Source: a virus (Duplodnaviria; Heunggongvirae; Uroviricota; Caudoviricetes). Taken from it: DNA of 64,000 bases. The stretch lies in the IMG/VR virus record IMGVR_UViG_3300039208_000529, positions 112,443 through 176,442 of that record. One strand, 5' to 3'. Of the stretch, positions 22,725-55,576 are shown piece after piece (the first letter of the stretch is position 1; every line of letters starts with the position of its first letter). The notes under the pieces were generated by a model. That model was not told the origin of the DNA. It did not search any database and worked only from the letters and a program-made list of their open reading frames with translations. The position numbers were made by a program, and so were the translations under genes.

Positions 22725-23336
22725 TTATCTAGTCCCTCCACCCAGCTGAAAAAACTTGTCTAAAAAAGCCTTCATAATTTTGTCATTATCAATTTTCTCA
22801 ACAGAAAATGGGCTGCTGTAAGAATACATAGCATGATTTGCATTACTTAATTTAAGAATTCCATCTCTGAAATCCATTGAGTATTCAGTAACCCAGTCTG
22901 GAATACGATGAAGTAATGTTTTAGCTTCAAAGATTAGGCAAGCCTTATCAGCTTCTTTCACAATATCGCTGTTAAATATGCCAAACGGCAACTTATATCT
23001 TGCCTCAATTGCTCCCTGAATCCCATCTTCGAGAACAGATATTTCTTTAAGGAATCTTTTGATAGGAGTAGGCACGTCGGCGAAATACGCTTCGCTGGCA
23101 TCATGAAGTAGCCCCGCCAATTGTTCCTCTTCCGTTCCCCCGGCATCCCTGATACGTTGAGCTACCTGTAATGAATGAGCCCCTACAGAATAAGAGAATT
23201 TGCAATGATCGTTCCATCTGCCCTTACGAGACAAAGGCACTACAATATCTAAAATATCCACATGCTCCGCACGCGGAGCAAATGGATAAAATTTCTTACC
23301 TGTATAAGTTGTAATATAAGTTTCTTCTTTTTTCAT
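22725..23336 (-). CDS. HD-domain phosphohydrolase (YfbR-like 5'-deoxynucleotidase family)
   Basis: H...HD motifs (GAHSLQVAQRI, LLHDASEAY). Confidence 0.6.
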   Translation of the reverse strand: MKKEETYITTYTGKKFYPFAPRAEHVDILDIVVPLSRKGRWNDHCKFSYSVGAHSLQVAQRIRDAGGTEEEQLAGLLHDASEAYFADVPTPIKRFLKEISVLEDGIQGAIEARYKLPFGIFNSDIVKEADKACLIFEAKTLLHRIPDWVTEYSMDFRDGILKLSNANHAMYSYSSPFSVEKIDNDKIMKAFLDKFFQLGGGTR

Positions 23337-24397
23337 TTCAACTTTCTTGCTACAAGTTTCCAAACATTGTCTTCAATATCTTTGTTGTCTAAAAGGCTAT
23401 ACAACAATCCTGTTTGTTCTGGATCTGAATTGGCCTGAATCCATAATGCCTGGTCTTTGCGAGTCACGTTGGGTCCTCGCGGAATTTTCTTTGACAGGTC
23501 TTCTGCGTCATATTTTATCTCATAATAAATTTTCTGTACTTGAGCCCTAACATCATCGAAATTAGCTTGAAGGTCTTTAGGAAGCTCAGCTAATAGTCCA
23601 CGATACTCTTTGCCGCGAATTAGATCGATAACTCCCTTAGGAGACAGATGTCCTAAGAGTTTATGAATTCTAAGATACCTAGGATCCTTAATCTTGACTC
23701 TTTGATTGTCCTCATCGAAGTGAACGACAAAACCTTCAAGCAAATCACTTTCAAATGGAGGCTCGCCCGAACAAAGCTCTTCGAATGAAAAAGAATATCT
23801 CTTTGGGCGTTTGAATCCTGCCGCCTCAGCAATCTTAGTAACTCTGTTTGCGTGCCACTCTTTGCCGCCTAGTTCGCGGATAGCGAGCAACGAGAGAAAT
23901 TCCTCACCCTCATAATCGACCACTACCCTGTTTTCAGGATAAACGATCTCAAAGATGGGAGTAACGTCTGTGGGAAGAGCGGCCAAAGCACTTCCATACA
24001 AGCGATACAGCATTTCAGATCCATACTGTGCTTGCTCGGACGCTAGGCTGCCTGGAGTAGCTAATCGCCAACGTCCGTTATAGTGATATCCAATGCCGCA
24101 TGACCCATCTACTTTTTCATAGATGTGAAAACTGCTACTCCAGGGCAAGTTTTCTGGTTGCGTTTTGCTTGTTTCGTAGAGATTGAAGAATTTACTGAAA
24201 GGTCGAGCCATAATGTTTGCGTTCTTATCGAAGATAATTCCCCGACATTCGATATTAACATCGTTCCACTCTGTCTTATTTTCAGCCATCATGGTTGGAT
24301 GATATTTGAAAAGAGTAAGATCACCTTCCGAGCTAGGCATAACCCGACCGGCCTCAACCTCTTTCCAGATCTTATTTAGTAGAATGGGATCATTCAT
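23333..24397 (-). CDS. ATP-dependent RNA ligase (Rnl1-like nucleotidyltransferase)
   Basis: Motif I FHIYEKVDGSCG (KxDG). Size and layout resemble T4 RnlA. Confidence 0.6.
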   Translation of the reverse strand: MNDPILLNKIWKEVEAGRVMPSSEGDLTLFKYHPTMMAENKTEWNDVNIECRGIIFDKNANIMARPFSKFFNLYETSKTQPENLPWSSSFHIYEKVDGSCGIGYHYNGRWRLATPGSLASEQAQYGSEMLYRLYGSALAALPTDVTPIFEIVYPENRVVVDYEGEEFLSLLAIRELGGKEWHANRVTKIAEAAGFKRPKRYSFSFEELCSGEPPFESDLLEGFVVHFDEDNQRVKIKDPRYLRIHKLLGHLSPKGVIDLIRGKEYRGLLAELPKDLQANFDDVRAQVQKIYYEIKYDAEDLSKKIPRGPNVTRKDQALWIQANSDPEQTGLLYSLLDNKDIEDNVWKLVARKLK

Positions 24398-26710: not shown

Positions 26711-27985
26711 TTAAAATCCAGCCTGTTTTAGAACTTTAGCTCTTTCTTGTTCAATTTTCTGAGCGATAACCTTGCCATCTTTGAGATGTGCAAACTTGTA
26801 TCCCCTAACTCCTCGGATAATTTGAGCAGCTTTAATTACATTGTCTCGCGAAGGATAGGGCTTATCGATTAAATTTGGTCCACGTCCTTGAGCATCAGCC
26901 TGAGAAGCCAGAGCAATACGACGTAGTAACGTATCGTCTTGAATTGCGTTCAATCTCGTAAGAAGTCTTACTTTTTTAGTGGGCTTCAGGCCACTAAATC
27001 TGTGAATATTCAAGTGTTCTTTTGCGGTCATTGCTGCGGCCACCCGAAAACTATTCGGTGCTTTCAATCTATCACAAACTTTGTGCACCAGAGGAACCCC
27101 CAATGCTTCGTGATTATAGTGGTGTGGTAAATTGTAATCGTCTGTTACTGCCTTTCCAAGATCATGACACATTGCAGCAAACATAGTTTCAGGATCGCCA
27201 CCCAATTCTCTTGCTCTATCAATAACAAGCAGTGTGTGAACGTAGGCATCTCCCTCAGGATGATATTGCGGTGGCTGCACACGACCCTTCAGATTATCAA
27301 TTTCTGGAAATAGAATTGATAGGGCTTGTAGTTTATCTAAGGCTCGAAAGAATCGTGACGGCTTATTTGATGCGAGAGCCTTTGTTAGTTCCATCCATAC
27401 ACGTTCGCCAGACAAAGATTGAAGCTCGTTTAGAACCTTACTTGATTCGTGCACAAGGTTTTCGCCAATTGTCATTTCAAGTTGTGCGGCGAATCTAGCG
27501 GCTCTCATAACTCGCAAAGGGTCTTCGCCAAAGTGAGGTCCGACAGCAGTTAAAACACCATCCTCGATATCTTCTTTTCCATTAAAAGGATCGATAATTT
27601 CGTTGGTAAAGGGGTCCATTGCCATTGCGTTAACTGTTAGGTCGCGTCGGCCTAGATCATCCTTAAGAGTTACGTTATCGGCGGTCCACACGAAGCCTTT
27701 GTGCCCGGGACCGGCTTTCTTTTCTGTGCGTGCTAAAGCTATTTCTGTTTCATTGATAATAAAAACTGGGAACTTGTTTCCTACAACGCTGACTCCTGAT
27801 CCGGGGAATGCGTCAATGAGCTTTCGCCATGCGGACCTAAAATCTTCCGCCAATCCAACAACCACAATATCTACGTCGCTTGATTGTCTTCCCATTAGTA
27901 AATCCCGGACATATCCTCCAACCACATATGGTTGGCCACCAATATCCTTGATTTTGCGACAAAGCTCTAAGTGTTTTTCTAGCAT
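26711..27985 (-). CDS. cca: tRNA nucleotidyltransferase (CCA-adding enzyme) with an HD domain
   Basis: GGYVRDLLMG head motif, RRDLTVNAMA, C-terminal HD (HDLGK). Confidence 0.85.
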   Translation of the reverse strand: MLEKHLELCRKIKDIGGQPYVVGGYVRDLLMGRQSSDVDIVVVGLAEDFRSAWRKLIDAFPGSGVSVVGNKFPVFIINETEIALARTEKKAGPGHKGFVWTADNVTLKDDLGRRDLTVNAMAMDPFTNEIIDPFNGKEDIEDGVLTAVGPHFGEDPLRVMRAARFAAQLEMTIGENLVHESSKVLNELQSLSGERVWMELTKALASNKPSRFFRALDKLQALSILFPEIDNLKGRVQPPQYHPEGDAYVHTLLVIDRARELGGDPETMFAAMCHDLGKAVTDDYNLPHHYNHEALGVPLVHKVCDRLKAPNSFRVAAAMTAKEHLNIHRFSGLKPTKKVRLLTRLNAIQDDTLLRRIALASQADAQGRGPNLIDKPYPSRDNVIKAAQIIRGVRGYKFAHLKDGKVIAQKIEQERAKVLKQAGF

Positions 27986-37478: not shown

Positions 37479-37554
37479 TGGTCGGGAATGGTAGAATCGA
37501 ACTACGTCTTGGGGCTCCCAAGGCCCCCGTGCAAACCATTACACTTCATTCCCG
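37479..37554 (-). tRNA. tRNA-Pro (anticodon UGG)
   Basis: 7-bp acceptor CGGGAAT/ATTCCCG, anticodon arm GGGGC-CUUGGGA-GCCCC, T-loop TTCGATT, CCA encoded. D arm irregular. Confidence 0.6.
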
Positions 37555-45671: not shown

Positions 45672-47134
45672 GATACTGAAACACGCTCACGAATTTCGGC
45701 CAACGTCCAGTCTCGAATTATTTCGCCATTGCGGAACACCGTTTGAAGCATGTTGCCGTTGGCATTATCTTGACCTTGGACAGTGAGGACTTGCCCCTCA
45801 CGTCTTACCAAAGACAGTCTACCACGCTTAGAATTCTTTGTCGAATCCGTTGCCGGTTTCTTGAAAATTTCTCGCCCCTCTTTATTTACTTGCATCCAAG
45901 AACACTTGATGGCGAATCTTTGCGTGTCGCGGTCAAAATCCTGCAATAAGCCTCCACCGCTCCCAAAAGCGATATTATCCGCCGAAATAGTATTTCGGCG
46001 AAATGATTCCAAGATTTGTTCAACGGTATGGCGTGGTTTTCTCTCCGCAAGCATATCAGAAAGTTTTTCAGTTAAGTCAGATGTGTTCCAAGAATTACGT
46101 GTCCACTTAATACCATCGCCCTGAATCATACGAACATATGGAGGCAACACATGATATCCTTTACTATTTACTTCTGTGCCAAATTCCTCGGCTAATGCTT
46201 GGAATACCTGAATATCAATATCGGGAAGCGTTCCGGAATCTGGACGGAATACTACTGTGCCGTTCCGACTGCGGATCATGTCATAAATATCTCTGTTTTT
46301 AGCAATCACTTGATCGATAAAACCAATCGTATCAAACGAGTCGATCACCATGGCCACAAGACCCTCGGGATGCGTAGTCAGAATCTGACGAACAATGTCG
46401 GCTTCGCCTTCTGGACCCCGAGCAGTCATAATAGAGTGCTCCGTAGCAGGGATGGAAAATCCCGCCATAGGCTCATGATAGTAGTTCTTCAAAAGAGAGA
46501 GAGCAGCCATTGTATCTGTGCCCATAGCTCCGGTAGCTAGATGGGCGGCTCCCGCTAGTGCCGCAGTCTCCACAGAGGAAACTCCTCTATAACCAAAATC
46601 ATGAAGCTTGAAATCAAGCCCTGCTGGATCTCCAGTAAGGTCTAAGTATTTCTTAATGATTTTCCTAACTTCGTGACTGCCCGTAGCCACGGTGATAGGA
46701 GACCAAACTTGCATGAGAACTGTTTCAAGGAAGTTGGTAAGCCACGGAACTTGCCAGTCGGTGTTTTCGATAGTGAAAAGCACATTCCCGGTAGGAATAA
46801 TCTCTCCCTCGGGCACTGCTTTAATTACAACAGGAAGATATCCTTTGTGCTTTTTGAGAATGTATTCCCAGCCCTCACGATTGAACACATCTTCTCGCCC
46901 AAAGTGAGCAGCACACAGTTCGGCTGCTTCATCAATTTTAGCTTGAGTTACAACTTGTCCAACTAAATACTTTTTCAGAATATATTGTAACCCAAAAAAT
47001 AGACTTGCGGGGAAGCGAGCACCAACCCTTGATTCACAGTATGAATACACCTTCTCTGTACCAGGAGGATACAGAGAATGATGAGATTGCTTATAACTGT
47101 CAGTGCCAACAGCCAATAAATTGAAATTGTTCAT
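45668..47134 (-). CDS. nadV: nicotinamide phosphoribosyltransferase (NAMPT/NadV)
   Basis: GTDSYK, GFSIPATEHS and FGSGGGLLQ motifs. Confidence 0.9.
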   Translation of the reverse strand: MNNFNLLAVGTDSYKQSHHSLYPPGTEKVYSYCESRVGARFPASLFFGLQYILKKYLVGQVVTQAKIDEAAELCAAHFGREDVFNREGWEYILKKHKGYLPVVIKAVPEGEIIPTGNVLFTIENTDWQVPWLTNFLETVLMQVWSPITVATGSHEVRKIIKKYLDLTGDPAGLDFKLHDFGYRGVSSVETAALAGAAHLATGAMGTDTMAALSLLKNYYHEPMAGFSIPATEHSIMTARGPEGEADIVRQILTTHPEGLVAMVIDSFDTIGFIDQVIAKNRDIYDMIRSRNGTVVFRPDSGTLPDIDIQVFQALAEEFGTEVNSKGYHVLPPYVRMIQGDGIKWTRNSWNTSDLTEKLSDMLAERKPRHTVEQILESFRRNTISADNIAFGSGGGLLQDFDRDTQRFAIKCSWMQVNKEGREIFKKPATDSTKNSKRGRLSLVRREGQVLTVQGQDNANGNMLQTVFRNGEIIRDWTLAEIRERVSVS

Positions 47135-51912: not shown

Positions 51913-51940
51913 TTGACATCTTGGAACAACGTGCTATTAT
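51913..51940 (+). promoter_or_regulatory. near-consensus sigma70 promoter (TTGACA-16-TATTAT) preceded by a T-tract
   Basis: -35 at 51913-51918, -10 at 51935-51940. Drives the tRNA-like gene and the downstream structured RNA. Confidence 0.6.
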
Positions 51941-51991: not shown

Positions 51992-52065
51992 GACCCTGTA
52001 GTTTAATGGAGAACATCGGCGTTAATCTGCCGACGGCATAGGTTTGAATCCTGTCGGGGTCGCCA
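51992..52065 (+). ncRNA. atypical tRNA-like gene with an 8-nt anticodon loop (GUUAAUCU), 3-bp D stem and short variable loop
   Basis: 7-bp acceptor GACCCTG/CGGGGTC, anticodon stem TCGGC/GCCGA, T arm ATAGG-TTTGAAT-CCTGT, CCA encoded. 71 nt plus CCA. Confidence 0.45.
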
Positions 52066-53711: not shown

Positions 53712-54182
53712 TTAAGATTTCACTAGATGTTCAATTGCATGACAGTTTGGACATAGTATTTCTAAATTTGACAACTTGTTATTTTTGTGGTTATGATCTA
53801 TATGATGCACCTGTAGTATTTTTTTATATTTATTGTAGTTACATCTATTACATTTATTTGGAAGCTTACTCCACGCTAAAGCACGATATCCTGTACCATA
53901 GTGATTAGGTTGAATGGCTTTTATTCCACCGATGCGTTGAGCCTGATCTTTATGTTGTCGGCAACAAAAGAATAAACCGCTTTTTGAATTACGCTGTTTG
54001 CTGCGGTTAAGATAAAACGGTTTCTTACACTGAGCACATTTAACATTGGGTACAGGATCTCGTTTACGGAATCTATTTGAACAAGAAATGGAACAAAACC
54101 GACCGTTGCCTCGATTGACTTCTTTCAACGATGCTTTAAATAGTTGGTGACAATACTCACATAAGCGATTTGTCGTTTTCAT
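53712..54182 (-). CDS. HNH homing endonuclease
   Basis: HHIDHNHKNN...LEILCPNCH motif. Lone minus-strand gene between tRNAs. Confidence 0.8.
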   Translation of the reverse strand: MKTTNRLCEYCHQLFKASLKEVNRGNGRFCSISCSNRFRKRDPVPNVKCAQCKKPFYLNRSKQRNSKSGLFFCCRQHKDQAQRIGGIKAIQPNHYGTGYRALAWSKLPNKCNRCNYNKYKKILQVHHIDHNHKNNKLSNLEILCPNCHAIEHLVKS

Positions 54183-54197
54183 TATATAAATATCTCC

Positions 54198-54273
54198 GGG
54201 GGTATAGTGCTAATTGGTAACACACGGCCCTTGCAAGGCCGAATACGGGGATCATAACCCCGTGCCTCCACCA
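54198..54273 (+). tRNA. tRNA-Ala (anticodon UGC) with a non-canonical T-loop (ATCATAA)
   Basis: Acceptor GGGGGTA/TGCCTCC, anticodon arm CGGCC-CUUGCAA-GGCCG, CCA encoded. Confidence 0.6.
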
Positions 54274-54318: not shown

Positions 54319-54403
54319 GTGCAATGCCCAGGGCGGATCTTCGACGGAAGATGCCGGTTCGACTCCGGAGGGACTGTAGAGGTTCGAATCCTTAATTGCA
54401 CTT
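54319..54403 (+). ncRNA. tRNA-like element: perfect 7-bp acceptor GTGCAAT/ATTGCAC, no CCA, two T-arm-like hairpins; it does not fold as a canonical cloverleaf
   Basis: Hairpins CCGG-TTCGACT-CCGG, GAGG-TTCGAAT-CCTT and ATCTTC-GACG-GAAGAT read directly. Confidence 0.35.
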
Positions 54404-54438: not shown

Positions 54439-54675
54439 ATGTCATTGGACAAAAAGATCAGGGACGAGCAAGTGGAAGGCTTGTATTACAAGTATTTTAC
54501 GGAAGATGGCGGACAATATATCACCATACCTACAAAATTTGAAGATGAGTGGTATGTTGGTGTTTATGATGCTTTTACGGGAATGGAACTAAAAGACCCA
54601 AAAGCAAGATTGCTTAGGTTCTATAACGTTACTGCTTCTGAAGCTTCAGACGAAGCCGTTAAACTAGTCACATGA
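54439..54675 (+). CDS. hypothetical protein
   Basis: 78-aa ORF. Confidence 0.5.
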   Translation: MSLDKKIRDEQVEGLYYKYFTEDGGQYITIPTKFEDEWYVGVYDAFTGMELKDPKARLLRFYNVTASEASDEAVKLVT

Positions 54676-54983
54676 AAACCAAAATCTATTACAGTGTACA
54701 AAATTATGGCGATGGCACTGCTCATCCTGTGTTTTTTAGTTCACAAGAATTAGCTGATCTGCATCAAAAACATCAATGTGAAGGTTGGGCTGAAGATTGT
54801 GTTGGTTTTATCGAAATTGAATCCGATAATCCTATTCAATGCGTTCAGGTGCAAACTCGCAAAGATATGCTCAAAGAGCTTCACGAAGATTTGTTTGATG
54901 AAAACGGTGAATTAGAGTCCTGGGTTGACGACGACGACGAGTCGTGGAAATTCTATCAAGACATTCTAATGTTGGATCAATAA
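54672..54983 (+). CDS. hypothetical acidic protein
   Basis: ATGA overlap with the upstream gene. Confidence 0.5.
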   Translation: MKTKIYYSVQNYGDGTAHPVFFSSQELADLHQKHQCEGWAEDCVGFIEIESDNPIQCVQVQTRKDMLKELHEDLFDENGELESWVDDDDESWKFYQDILMLDQ

Positions 54984-55576
54984 TATTGAAGCAGTATCCC
55001 TCAATCCCATCGAAGATCATTTACAGCACTCCTATTTATGCTTTCGATAAACTGGACGGCTCGAATATTCGCGTCGAATGGACGAGAAAACGCGGGTTTC
55101 ACAAATTTGGCCGCAGAAACGGATTGTTGGACGACTCAAATCCAATCCTAAAAAAATCGATCCCCATATTTGAAGATAAATATTCTGATGATCTGGAAAA
55201 GATATTCTGCAAGCAAGGCTGGGACAAGACAATTGCTTACGTAGAATTTTATGGATCCAATTCCTTTGCCGGATTTCACGATGAATCCGACGACCACACG
55301 GTAACACTCTTTGATGTGTGGGTCCATAAGAAAGGCTTCGTACTTCCAAACCACTTTCTTTCTCTATTTAAAGATGTTGATATTCCTAATGTTGTGCATC
55401 GTGGTAAGGTCAATAAAGAAGTAGAAGGAAACATTCGTCAATCCACACTTGACGGAGTTACCTTTGAAGGTGTAGTGTGTAAGGGGCCGGGCATCTCTTT
55501 CAAGATTAAGACTAGAGCCTGGCTTGAAAAATTGAAGGCCGTGTATAGTGATCAGGAGTTTGAGCGTCTCAAATGA
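54944..55576 (+). CDS. minimal ATP-dependent RNA ligase-like nucleotidyltransferase (Rnl2-type NTase core)
   Basis: Motif I AFDKLDGSN; motif IV DGVTFEGVVCK; motif V SFKIKTRAW. Start position uncertain. Confidence 0.6.
   Translation: MEILSRHSNVGSIILKQYPSIPSKIIYSTPIYAFDKLDGSNIRVEWTRKRGFHKFGRRNGLLDDSNPILKKSIPIFEDKYSDDLEKIFCKQGWDKTIAYVEFYGSNSFAGFHDESDDHTVTLFDVWVHKKGFVLPNHFLSLFKDVDIPNVVHRGKVNKEVEGNIRQSTLDGVTFEGVVCKGPGISFKIKTRAWLEKLKAVYSDQEFERLK

What the first reader, a model, noticed from the sequence alone, without database searches (positions are those of the whole stretch)
54319..54403. Second non-canonical tRNA-like element, with two T-arm-like hairpins
A perfect 7-bp acceptor helix (GTGCAAT ... 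ATTGCAC, then T, no CCA) encloses 69 nt that contain two T-arm consensus hairpins (CCGG-TTCGACT-CCGG and GAGG-TTCGAAT-CCTT) and a 6-bp hairpin with a GACG loop. It has no recognisable anticodon arm. It sits between tRNA-Ala and the next ORF, just after an HNH endonuclease gene. It could be a tRNA remnant from endonuclease-mediated rearrangement, a tRNA-like regulatory or priming element, or a highly derived type II tRNA.
Basis: seen in the sequence. Interest (0 to 1): 0.5.

Follow-up and report, generated by a model that had tools for sequence, protein, structure and literature searches.

The report
Anticodon-less phage tRNA mimic, two T-arms
This 84-base stretch is a tRNA-shaped RNA gene with no anticodon and a second copy of the tRNA "elbow" arm. 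It belongs to a recurrent family of such RNAs in phage genomes, structurally conserved but apparently unannotated, whose function is unknown.

Summary
A perfect 7-bp acceptor helix (54319-54325 / 54395-54401) encloses a 6-bp hairpin with a GACG loop and two T-arm hairpins. ARAGORN and the Rfam tRNA model do not call it.

It is not a one-off. Scanning viral contigs for two closely spaced T-arm motifs recovered dozens of elements with the same five-part layout. These include unannotated tRNA-sized slots in the tRNA arrays of cultured cyanophages (S-CREM1, B3). All five helices covary.

Covariance models built without the window score it full-length at 42.7 and 51.2 bits. The best ordinary tRNA scores 40.2 bits.

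The first T-arm is not an anticodon arm: position 6 of its loop is a pyrimidine in 33 of 36 members.

The window copy is a weak member. Its D stem is poor, its second T stem has 4 bp, the consensus fold is 5.6 kcal/mol above the minimum free energy (MFE), and it lacks the CCA that all 11 tRNAs here encode.

Best reading: a non-decoding tRNA mimic, co-transcribed with tRNA-Ala and released by tRNA-processing enzymes. Its function is unknown; a decoy or competitor for a factor that binds the tRNA elbow is inference only. Main rival: a decaying copy.

The parts
54319..54325 (+). Acceptor-stem 5' strand, GTGCAAT.
   Evidence: It pairs 7/7 Watson-Crick with 54395-54401. Pair probability is 0.93-0.99. 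It aligns to the acceptor helix of class models R1 and R2.
54326..54336 (+). D-arm-like segment GCCCAGGGCGG. It can form only a 2-3 bp stem (CC/GG) around a G-rich loop.
   Evidence: It aligns to the D arm of the class model with low posterior probability and gaps. It is nearly collinear with ACCAGTGGTGGA of class member L133. The D stem is the weakest helix class-wide, at 79.8% paired.
54337..54352 (+). Capped hairpin ATCTTC-GACG-GAAGAT (6 bp, tetraloop). It occupies the place of an anticodon arm.
   Evidence: Sequence. The same C-GACG-G capped hairpin at the same position is seen in cyanophage family A and in L030, L037, L057, L083 and L133. Other members carry GATA, GGCA, TTCG or TACG loops. 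The helix covaries.
54354..54368 (+). T-arm 1: CCGG-TTCGACT-CCGG. This is the extra arm.
   Evidence: It matches the T-loop consensus. Class-wide the helix is 97.5% paired and covaries. Loop position 6 is a pyrimidine in 33/36 members, so this is not an anticodon loop.
54369..54378 (+). Spacer AGGGACTGTA, with a GG as in a D loop.
   Evidence: The class spacers have the consensus YTGGNAA, which resembles a D loop. The window keeps the GG but not the AA.
54379..54393 (+). T-arm 2: GAGG-TTCGAAT-CCTT. It abuts the acceptor stem. A54378 and A54394 form a mismatch at the fifth position of the stem.
   Evidence: Sequence. It aligns to the T2 helix of R1 and R2. It is thermodynamically weak here, with pair probability 0.12.
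54395..54402 (+). Acceptor-stem 3' strand ATTGCAC plus the unpaired T at the discriminator position. It is followed by TTTAG, not CCA.
   Evidence: All 11 ordinary tRNAs of the window encode CCA.
54198..54273 (+). tRNA-Ala(TGC), 45 nt upstream on the same strand. It is the probable co-transcribed neighbour.
   Evidence: ARAGORN and Rfam at 43.8 bits. No terminator-like site lies between it and the element.
53768..53797 (+). Promoter-like site TTGACA-18-TATGAT (11/12) that could drive tRNA-Ala, the element and the downstream ORFs. Tentative.
   Evidence: Consensus scan. The number of such sites in the region is no higher than in shuffles, so this is weak evidence.
26711..27985 (-). Phage-encoded CCA-adding-enzyme-like protein. 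It is a candidate enzyme for adding a 3' end to the CCA-less element (inference).
   Evidence: Pfam PolyA_pol head domain 1.5e-24, PolyA_pol_RNAbd 3.3e-11 and HD 2.5e-07.

Best explanation
The element is an RNA gene for a non-decoding tRNA mimic. It is a divergent member of a recurrent phage class.

**Architecture of the class.** A 7-bp acceptor stem closes a five-way junction made of:
- a small D arm with a GG loop;
- a tetraloop-capped hairpin where the anticodon arm would be;
- an extra T-arm (T1);
- a D-loop-like GG spacer;
- the ordinary T-arm (T2), stacked on the acceptor stem.

**Shown here.** The architecture, its conservation and covariation across phage lineages, the window element's full-length fit to the class model, its position on the tRNA strand, and the absence of any anticodon loop.

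**Inferred.**
- It is transcribed with tRNA-Ala and the downstream ORFs.
- It is cut out by the enzymes that process tRNAs (RNase P at the 5' end, a 3' nuclease). In cyanophage arrays the flanking tRNAs lie only 2-5 nt away, so processing them necessarily releases it.
- It may be CCA-tailed by the phage's own CCA-adding enzyme.
- It presents two T-loop/GG 'elbows', so it acts as a competitor or decoy for a protein or RNA that recognises the tRNA elbow, T-arm or acceptor minihelix. That could be a host tRNA-targeting defence enzyme or a tRNA-processing or modification enzyme. It does not act in decoding.

The identity of the partner is unknown.
For: - **T-arm motifs are tRNA-specific in this window.** 9 found against 0.18 expected; the two non-tRNA copies are in this element.
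- **The layout recurs.** About 45 of those hits are closed by a 7-bp helix with the same layout.
- **Fit to model R1** (12 elements, window excluded): 42.7 bits, E 2.5e-9, model positions 1-90. The window's own tRNAs score <= 19.9 bits.
- **Fit to model R2** (36 elements, window excluded): 51.2 bits, against 40.2 bits for the best ordinary tRNA in 12 sources. Held-out class members score 37.5-60.4 bits.
- **Covariation in the class alignment:** 92.5% of cells paired, against 59.1% in shuffles and <= 52.5% in slid controls; 262 double-sided changes against 73.
- **Covariation in a sequence-only MAFFT alignment of 18 cyanophage members.** These were chosen by spacer plus T2 only. 99.6% paired, 9 pairs with compensatory changes, slid controls <= 55%.
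- **Folding of other members.** The consensus fold is the de novo MFE for members L045, L133 and L030.
- **Cultured cyanophages.** In S-CREM1 and B3 the element fills an unannotated tRNA-sized slot 2-5 nt from the flanking tRNAs.
- **Strand context.** 21 of 42 members have same-strand tRNAs within 1 kb; none has an opposite-strand tRNA.
- **T1 is not an anticodon loop.** Loop position 6 is T 29, C 4, G 2, A 1.
- **Relevant phage enzymes.** The window phage encodes a CCA-adding-enzyme-like protein and RNA ligases.
Against: - **The window copy is the weak end of the class.**
  - The D stem has only 2-3 bp.
  - T2 has 4 bp including a G-U, with an A-A at the fifth position.
  - The spacer lacks the AA of the consensus.
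  - The consensus fold (-23 to -24.2 kcal/mol) is 5.6 kcal/mol worse than the MFE, and T2 pair probability is 0.12.
- **No variation is available for this lineage.** No relative of the element's own lineage was found. The only other copies are 100% identical, so there is no direct evidence of selection on this copy.
- **No CCA.** It lacks the CCA that all 11 tRNAs of the same genome encode.
- **The score margin is modest.** A few ordinary tRNAs elsewhere reach about 40 bits on the class models.
- **The class was found by demanding two T-arm motifs,** so those two features are present by construction.
- **No expression data.**
- **No consistent protein neighbour** that would point to a partner.
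Confidence: 0.58

Rival explanations
1. It is a decaying, non-functional copy: a pseudogene of a class member, or of a tRNA scrambled by recombination or by homing-endonuclease activity. It keeps tRNA-like pieces but no longer does anything.
For: - Weak D and T2 stems, and a consensus fold 5.6 kcal/mol above the MFE.
- No encoded CCA, unlike every tRNA in the window.
- An HNH gene lies about 140 nt upstream.
- The nearest related contig, L127 (RNA ligase 69% identical), carries a different odd tRNA-like element plus tRNA-Glu upstream of the ligase gene, so this region turns over.
- No diverged homologue of this lineage was found on which to test constraint.
Against: - All five helices and both T-loop consensus sequences are intact, in the right order and at the right spacing.
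- The acceptor helix (7/7), the capped hairpin (6/6) and the T1 stem (4/4 G-C) are perfect.
- The full-length model fit at 51.2 bits exceeds every ordinary tRNA tested.
- Random decay or rearrangement would not be expected to reproduce a layout that other phages conserve with compensatory changes.
Confidence: 0.27
2. It is a real decoding tRNA, tRNA-Ser(CGA). T-arm 1 would be the anticodon arm (loop TTCGACT, anticodon CGA) and the capped hairpin would be an extra arm.
For: - ARAGORN calls several class members tRNA-Ser(cga) in exactly this way: L030, L084, L092, L051 and L133.
- The one T1 loop variant seen in cyanophage B3, TTTGATT, would still read as a Ser anticodon (TGA).
Against: - Position 37 of such a loop would be C here, and a pyrimidine in 33/36 members. 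Established tRNA knowledge requires a purine there.
- ARAGORN's calls for other members are inconsistent: Leu-cag, Thr-agt, or none.
- The loop matches the T-loop consensus as well as T2 does.
- The Rfam tRNA model gives no hit at E <= 10, even on 121 nt.
- There is no long variable arm.
- There is no CCA, unlike all tRNAs of this genome.
Confidence: 0.03
3. It is mainly a cis-acting processing or punctuation signal. The tRNA-like fold would recruit RNase P or a 3' nuclease to cut the polycistronic early transcript and define the 5' end of the downstream mRNA (the 78-aa and 103-aa ORFs and the RNA-ligase-like gene). The released RNA would have no role of its own.
For: - It lies 36 nt upstream of the ORF at 54439, on the same strand, with no terminator between.
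- tRNA-like processing signals are an established mechanism elsewhere, for example mascRNA/MALAT1 and mitochondrial tRNA punctuation (my own knowledge; also noted in PMC4810234).
Against: - In cyanophage arrays the element sits between tRNAs that already supply processing sites.
- A processing signal would not need a second T-arm or a conserved capped hairpin.
- L133 is a stand-alone unit flanked by terminator-like T runs.
Confidence: 0.1

Closest known systems
Canonical tRNA (Rfam RF00005), especially type II tRNAs with a long variable arm (Ser/Leu/Tyr)
   Same: - 7-bp acceptor stem with one unpaired base after it.
- A T-arm with the GGTTCGAATCC-type loop next to the acceptor stem.
- A G-rich D-like segment.
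- A length of 84 nt, typical of type II tRNAs.
- Location among tRNA genes on their strand.
- An extra hairpin between the central arm and the T-arm, as in type II tRNAs.
- Among the window's own tRNAs, tRNA-Leu (type II) scores highest on both class models. A type II tRNA-Ser (L024 7240-7330) is one of the two best-scoring ordinary tRNAs overall.
   Different: - No 7-nt anticodon loop; there is a tetraloop-capped hairpin instead.
- The extra arm is itself a T-arm, and a 10-nt GG spacer follows it.
- Not detected by ARAGORN or by the tRNA covariance model.
- No encoded CCA, although all tRNAs of this genome have one.
Phage T4 stable RNAs species 1 and 2 (rnaC, rnaD) in the T4 tRNA cluster
   Same: - Small RNAs encoded inside a phage tRNA cluster, on the tRNA strand, next to a homing endonuclease gene (segB).
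- rnaC ends in a T-arm (CCGGGTTCGAATCCCGG).
- Their function is still unknown (my own knowledge).
   Different: - They are 119 and 139 nt long and have a single T-arm.
- No sequence similarity to the element.
- rnaC scores only 21.3 bits on the class model.
YrlA / bacterial Y-RNA-like tRNA mimics (PMC4201824)
   Same: Non-decoding RNAs whose module mimics the tRNA acceptor, T-arm and D-arm. They also occur in phages (title and abstract listed).
   Different: - YrlA has one T-arm and a long Ro-binding helix in place of the anticodon arm.
- No Rfam Y-RNA-like hit here.
- I did not look for a Ro/TROVE gene.
tmRNA tRNA-like domain
   Same: An anticodon-less tRNA-like fold with an acceptor stem and a T-arm.
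   Different: - tmRNA has G3:U70, a coding tag and pseudoknots.
- ARAGORN finds no tmRNA in the window.
- Pair 3:70 here is G-C.
Interdigitated double T-loop motif of RNase P, T-box Stem I and the L1 stalk (PMC3664808)
   Same: One RNA carries two T-loops, a module associated with the tRNA elbow.
   Different: - Those are 5-nt T-loop motifs in internal or terminal loops that dock onto a tRNA elbow.
- Here there are two complete tRNA-type T-arms, each with a possible GG partner, so the element more likely mimics elbows than binds them (inference).
Allo-tRNAs and irregular tRNAs with five-stem junctions (Mukai et al. 2017, PMC5389517; reviewed in PMC7609411)
   Same: Non-canonical tRNA-like genes with extra stems, some not usable in translation.
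   Different: Allo-tRNAs have 8/4 or 9/3 acceptor/T geometry and a real anticodon loop. This element has 7/5 geometry, no anticodon loop and a second T-arm.

Membership tests
Canonical tRNA (RF00005 / ARAGORN) | 7-bp acceptor stem closed by the 5' and 3' ends, with a single discriminator base. | tested here: met
   GTGCAAT/ATTGCAC pairs 7/7, then T.
Canonical tRNA (RF00005 / ARAGORN) | Anticodon arm: 5-bp stem and 7-nt loop with U33 and a purine at position 37. | tested here: not met
   The central hairpin has a 4-nt GACG loop. The only 7-nt loops are T-loop-like, with C at the position that would be 37. Class-wide that position is a pyrimidine in 33/36 members.
Canonical tRNA (RF00005 / ARAGORN) | Detected by the tRNA covariance model at the gathering score, or by ARAGORN. 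| tested here: not met
   No ARAGORN call. No RF00005 hit at E <= 10 in 5 kb or in 121 nt.
Canonical tRNA (RF00005 / ARAGORN) | 3' CCA, which every tRNA gene of this genome encodes. | tested here: not met
   All 11 tRNAs end in NCCA. The element is followed by TTTTAG.
Double-T-arm, anticodon-less tRNA-like RNAs of phages (class defined here) | Order and spacing of the parts: acceptor, D arm, capped hairpin, T1, GG spacer, T2, acceptor; 84-100 nt in total. | tested here: met
   Full-length alignment (model positions 1-90) to R1 and R2, both built without the window.
Double-T-arm, anticodon-less tRNA-like RNAs of phages (class defined here) | A score on the class model above that of ordinary tRNAs. 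| tested here: met
   51.2 bits, against <= 24.1 bits for the window's tRNAs and 40.2 bits for the best ordinary tRNA in 12 sources. The margin is modest.
Double-T-arm, anticodon-less tRNA-like RNAs of phages (class defined here) | A 3-4 bp D stem with a YTGG loop. | tested here: inconclusive
   Only CC/GG (2-3 bp) around CAGGGC, aligned with gaps. L133 has a similar short version.
Double-T-arm, anticodon-less tRNA-like RNAs of phages (class defined here) | A tetraloop-capped hairpin between the D arm and T1. | tested here: met
   ATCTTC-GACG-GAAGAT. The same GACG loop occurs in several independent lineages.
Double-T-arm, anticodon-less tRNA-like RNAs of phages (class defined here) | The consensus fold is thermodynamically favoured. 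| tested here: not met
   It is the MFE for L045, L133 and L030. For the window copy it is -23 to -24.2 kcal/mol against an MFE of -29.8.
Double-T-arm, anticodon-less tRNA-like RNAs of phages (class defined here) | Lies on the strand of neighbouring tRNA genes. | tested here: met
   tRNA-Ala is 45 nt upstream on the + strand. The class shows 21/42 members with same-strand tRNAs nearby and 0 with opposite-strand tRNAs.
Double-T-arm, anticodon-less tRNA-like RNAs of phages (class defined here) | Expressed and processed as a discrete RNA. | not testable with these tools
   No transcript data are available.
tRNA-Sec (RF01852) | 6-bp D stem with a 4-nt loop, 8/5 or 9/4 acceptor/T geometry, UCA anticodon, and a hit to the model. 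| tested here: not met
   Only a local 12.2-bit hit (gathering score 47) that aligns the capped hairpin plus T1 to the variable arm plus T-arm. There is no UCA loop.
tmRNA | A tRNA-Ala-like domain with G3:U70, plus a tag reading frame. | tested here: not met
   ARAGORN reports no tmRNA. Pair 3:70 is G-C.
YrlA / Y-RNA-like | A Ro-binding helix next to a tRNA-like module, and a Ro/TROVE gene in the genome. | not tested
   No Rfam hit, and no long helix in the 84 nt. The window was not screened for a Ro gene.

The most novel reading that the evidence does not exclude
The element is a working member of a previously undescribed, phage-wide class of non-decoding 'two-elbow' tRNA mimics. The second T-arm/GG module would let the RNA act in one of two ways:
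- as a decoy or inhibitor for a host factor that recognises the tRNA elbow, T-arm or type II shape, for example a tRNA-cleaving or tRNA-tagging anti-phage effector;
- as a non-ribosomal acceptor for a phage enzyme.
Probability: 0.35. Interest if true: 0.75.

Novelty: new variant of a known kind. Interest (0 to 1): 0.62.

Why it matters
Phage tRNA arrays are usually read as codon-usage or anti-defence supplies of decoding tRNAs. This work shows that they also carry a recurrent, structurally conserved RNA that cannot decode. It duplicates the part of tRNA (T-arm and elbow) that RNase P, CCA-adding enzyme, modification enzymes and the ribosome recognise.

The RNA is absent from Rfam 15. It is unannotated in the GenBank records of cultured cyanophages. 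ARAGORN either misses it or miscalls it as tRNA-Ser(cga), tRNA-Leu(cag) or tRNA-Thr(agt).

If it is functional, it gives a tractable system for asking what a tRNA mimic without an anticodon does during infection, because S-CREM1 can be grown on Synechococcus CB0101. It would also correct tRNA counts in phage annotation.

Tried and rejected
**Searches for relatives of this copy**
- Near and distant BLAST of the element and its flanks against 50,697 phage records found only short T-arm or tRNA-Met matches.
- An exact 39-mer search in IMG/VR found nothing.
- Neighbour-protein searches gave distant or uninformative loci. The RNA-ligase-like gene gave three IMG/VR loci at 35-41% identity without the element. 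The 78-aa ORF gave none.
- The large protein database gave about 2,000 ligase homologues. The closest lie on contigs too short or too distant to carry the element.
- The exact-protein look-up found only the source contig and an identical Logan contig.
- A metagenome scan with this copy's T1 sequence gave three loci. One is a class member (L133), and none is a close relative.

**Searches for a partner or a prior description**
- Gene-neighbourhood analysis of stand-alone members showed no consistent partner protein. HNH endonucleases appear next to 2 of the 8 stand-alone members whose flanking ORFs were scanned, and next to the window copy. I treat this as background.
- The minus-strand ORFs that overlap the element (85 and 57 aa) have no family match, and one runs through tRNA-Ala. 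I rejected them as genes.
- T4 rnaC/rnaD was examined as a possible homologue and rejected.
- Six literature searches found no description of a double-T-arm phage RNA. The library is incomplete, so prior description cannot be excluded.

**Other points**
- Folding the whole intergenic region adds nothing.
- The cellular-genome scan shows that two adjacent T-arm motifs are common there too, but only about 5 of 80 such loci fit the class model.
- Other kinds of double-T hits were seen and set aside as different things. One is a tRNA followed by an extra T-arm hairpin; another is a 'GTGCA...GGTGCAAAAC' family.

Full report
**1. The observation**

A perfect 7-bp helix, GTGCAAT (54319-54325) with ATTGCAC (54395-54401), is followed by T and no CCA. 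It encloses 69 nt, which read in order:
- GCCCAGGGCGG;
- a 6-bp hairpin, ATCTTC-GACG-GAAGAT (54337-54352);
- G;
- CCGG-TTCGACT-CCGG (54354-54368);
- AGGGACTGTA;
- GAGG-TTCGAAT-CCTT (54379-54393);
- A.

ARAGORN finds 10 tRNAs in the window but not this element. Rfam gives no tRNA match at E <= 10, whether 5 kb or only 121 nt is searched. The sole tRNA-clan hit is a 12.2-bit local match to the variable-arm and T-arm part of tRNA-Sec, whose gathering score is 47.

A 7-bp inverted repeat at this distance is not unusual in 64 kb. The T-arm content is. GGTTCRANTCC occurs nine times against 0.18 expected. Seven copies are in called tRNAs and two are here, 25 nt apart, on the strand of the flanking tRNAs.

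Single-sequence folding is unremarkable (z = -1.41).

**2. It is not unique**

No close relative of this phage is in the cultured-phage collection or in IMG/VR. The source contig is a 110-kb JGI contig, and a Logan contig carries an identical copy.

I therefore asked whether two closely spaced T-arm motifs recur anywhere. Two ordinary adjacent tRNAs cannot produce that spacing.

The hits fall into several kinds. About 45 of them are closed by a 7-bp helix and share the window element's layout:
- acceptor stem;
- a short D arm with a YTGG loop;
- a hairpin capped by a tetraloop (GACG in several independent lineages, otherwise GATA, GGCA, TTCG, TACG and others);
- T-arm 1;
- a 10-11-nt spacer with the D-loop-like consensus YTGGNAA;
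- T-arm 2, abutting the acceptor stem.

**3. The class is a conserved structure**

A covariance model (R1) built from 12 such elements, without the window, was used to collect and align 32 members. In that alignment 92.5% of cells form standard pairs. The shuffled control gives 59.1% and the slid-register controls give <= 52.5%. There are 262 cells with changes on both sides against 73 in shuffles, and all five helices covary.

That alignment is fitted to the model, so I repeated the test on one that is not. I selected the cyanophage subfamily by its spacer and T2 only and aligned 18 distinct sequences with MAFFT. The result is 99.6% paired, nine pairs with compensatory changes, 37 such cells against 10 in shuffles, and slid controls <= 55%.

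For members L045, L133 and L030, the five-way junction is the minimum-free-energy fold predicted from the single sequence.

**4. Where the class lives**

The cyanophage subfamily is present in cultured Kyanoviridae.
- In Synechococcus phage S-CREM1 it fills an unannotated 89-nt slot, 3 nt after tRNA-Phe and 5 nt before tRNA-Ile.
- In phage B3 it lies between tRNA-Ser(GCT) and an annotated pseudo-tRNA.

Across 42 members, 21 have same-strand tRNAs within 1 kb, often 1-15 nt away. None has an opposite-strand tRNA nearby. The remainder are stand-alone.

L133, from a metagenome, is bracketed by a terminator hairpin upstream and a T run downstream. It looks like an independent gene.

Two adjacent T-arm motifs are also common in bacterial and archaeal genomes. 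However, only about 5 of 80 such loci fit the class model, against roughly 45 of 120 in viral contigs.

Rfam 15 has no family for these elements. ARAGORN either misses them or calls them inconsistently as tRNA-Ser(cga), tRNA-Leu(cag) or tRNA-Thr(agt). Six literature searches found no description. The library is incomplete, so I cannot exclude prior work.

**5. Does the window element belong?**

On R1 it scores 42.7 bits (E 2.5e-9) over model positions 1-90, while the window's own tRNAs score <= 19.9 bits.

On a broader model, R2 (36 members, window excluded), it scores 51.2 bits. Held-out class members score 37.5-60.4 bits. The best ordinary tRNAs in 12 tRNA-rich sources score 40.2 and 39 bits.

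The capped hairpin carries the same C-GACG-G loop as several lineages. The D-like segment is nearly collinear with that of L133 (GCCCAGGGCGGA against ACCAGTGGTGGA).

So the layout test is met, with these reservations:
- the D stem is only 2-3 bp;
- T2 has 4 bp including a G-U, with an A-A at the fifth position;
- the spacer keeps GG but not AA;
- the consensus fold (-23 to -24.2 kcal/mol) is 5.6 kcal/mol above the MFE, and T2 pair probability is 0.12.

It is a divergent, thermodynamically weak member.

**6. What it cannot be**

*A decoding tRNA.* The central hairpin has a 4-nt loop. The alternative is that T-arm 1 is an anticodon arm reading CGA (Ser), which is how ARAGORN treats some members. 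That fails because the base that would be position 37 is C here. In the class it is T 29, C 4, G 2, A 1 of 36, whereas tRNAs carry a purine there (established knowledge). T1 in fact matches the T-loop consensus more strictly than T2 does.

*A likely amino-acid acceptor.* The base at the discriminator position varies among close cyanophage relatives (T, A or C). The window copy lacks the CCA that all 11 ordinary tRNAs of this genome encode. Both points argue against a conserved aminoacylation identity (inference).

*A recent duplicate.* It does not closely resemble any tRNA of the window.

*tmRNA, tRNA-Sec or T4 rnaC/rnaD.* All were tested and rejected.

**7. How it most likely works**

Shown:
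- a conserved five-way-junction RNA in tRNA-gene context;
- two tRNA-type T-arms and two GG-containing single-stranded segments;
- no anticodon loop.

Inferred:
- The element is transcribed with tRNA-Ala and the downstream ORFs. A promoter-like site lies at 53768-53797, and no terminator-like site lies between tRNA-Ala and the element.
- tRNA-processing enzymes excise it. In dense arrays, processing the flanking tRNAs must release it.
- The phage's own CCA-adding-enzyme-like protein (26711-27985) may add a 3' end.
- Each T-loop probably docks one GG segment as in the tRNA elbow, giving a molecule with two elbows and one acceptor-T minihelix. Such an RNA would be bound by factors that read the elbow, T-arm or acceptor end but could never enter decoding.

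I therefore favour a mimic that acts as a competitor or decoy. No partner is identified. Flanking genes of stand-alone members show nothing consistent.

The phage also carries an Rnl1-like ligase, a second RNA-ligase-like gene 540 nt downstream, and NAD-salvage genes. That fits a genome invested in tRNA maintenance but proves nothing about this RNA.

**8. Rivals**

- **Decaying copy (0.27).** This is the main rival. The weak stems, the missing CCA, the nearby HNH gene and the turnover of this region in the closest contig L127 all fit it. Against it, every helix and both T-loops are intact and in register.
- **Pure cis-processing signal (0.10).** This remains possible, and it overlaps with the favoured model.
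- **Decoding tRNA-Ser (0.03).** This is effectively excluded.

**9. Novelty and score**

The closest known things are type II tRNAs, T4 species 1/2 RNAs, YrlA and the tmRNA tRNA-like domain. All share tRNA mimicry without sharing this architecture.

I rate it a new variant of a known kind (tRNA-like non-coding RNA). Interest is 0.62. The class-level finding is solid and apparently unreported. The function is unknown, and the window copy is a weak example.

Noticed in passing
window 37483-37553 (-): A canonical-looking tRNA-Pro(TGG) that ARAGORN did not report. It has a C1-G72 acceptor pair, anticodon loop CTTGGGA and an ACCA end. It surfaced as a weak hit of the class model.
   Followed up: partly
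window 51992-52065 (+): ARAGORN's 'tRNA-???'. It is a good tRNA by Rfam (52.2 bits) but has a 9-nt anticodon loop, GTTAATCTG, on the stem TCGGC/GCCGA. It ends in GCCA. A strong promoter-like site (TTGACA-16-TATTAT with TG) lies at 51913-51940.
   Followed up: partly
window 40450-40525 (-): A tRNA with anticodon CTA, which ARAGORN labels 'Pyl'. It is an amber-suppressor-type tRNA encoded by the phage. I did not check whether TAG is read through in this genome.
   Followed up: no
window 26711-27985 (-), 23333-24397 (-), 54944-55576 (+), 45668-47134 (-): The phage carries a tRNA-maintenance and NAD-salvage gene set: a CCA-adding-enzyme-like protein (PolyA_pol head, RNA-binding and HD domains), a T4 Rnl1-like RNA ligase, a second RNA-ligase-like protein (PF09414/phrog_548) and a nicotinamide phosphoribosyltransferase.
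   Followed up: partly
L127 254-338: L127 is the closest related contig (RNA ligase 69% identical, same sample as L126). It carries a different odd tRNA-like element just before tRNA-Glu and the ligase gene. That element has a G3:U70 acceptor stem, an ACCA end and an aberrant interior, and ARAGORN does not call it.
   Followed up: partly
L045 382-468: In a cyanophage tRNA array, right next to the double-T-arm element, there is a tRNA-like gene with an anticodon loop of about 20 nt (ARAGORN 'tRNA-???', Rfam tRNA 49.1 bits). It shares the GGCAATGG motif before its T-arm.
   Followed up: no
L034, L035, L047, L053, L054, L058, L070, L072, L088, L108, L109 (IMG/VR loci): A different recurrent double-T-arm family with conserved flanks: ...GTGCAnnnGGTTCGAGTCC...GGTTCGACTCC...GTGCAnGGTGCAAAAC. 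No Rfam family reached its gathering score in L034 or L072, the two of these loci that were searched. Its identity is unknown.
   Followed up: no
L018, L024, L031, L032, L079, L089, L097, L103, L104, L117, L119, L122: A third recurrent pattern: an ordinary tRNA followed immediately by an extra T-arm hairpin and a conserved TCGGTnGnTGAGGnnTGGTG-like sequence. It may be the start of another conserved RNA or gene, or an attachment-site remnant.
   Followed up: no
L050 1703-1780: A Proteo-phage-1 RNA (RF03044, 69.4 bits) lies about 70 nt upstream of a stand-alone double-T-arm element (1853-1952).
   Followed up: no
L019 4468-4564: A class member that the strict motif scan could not detect, because its T2 loop is TTCGAAA. 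Its central hairpin has a 7-bp stem and a 9-nt loop instead of a tetraloop, so the central arm varies in the class.
   Followed up: partly
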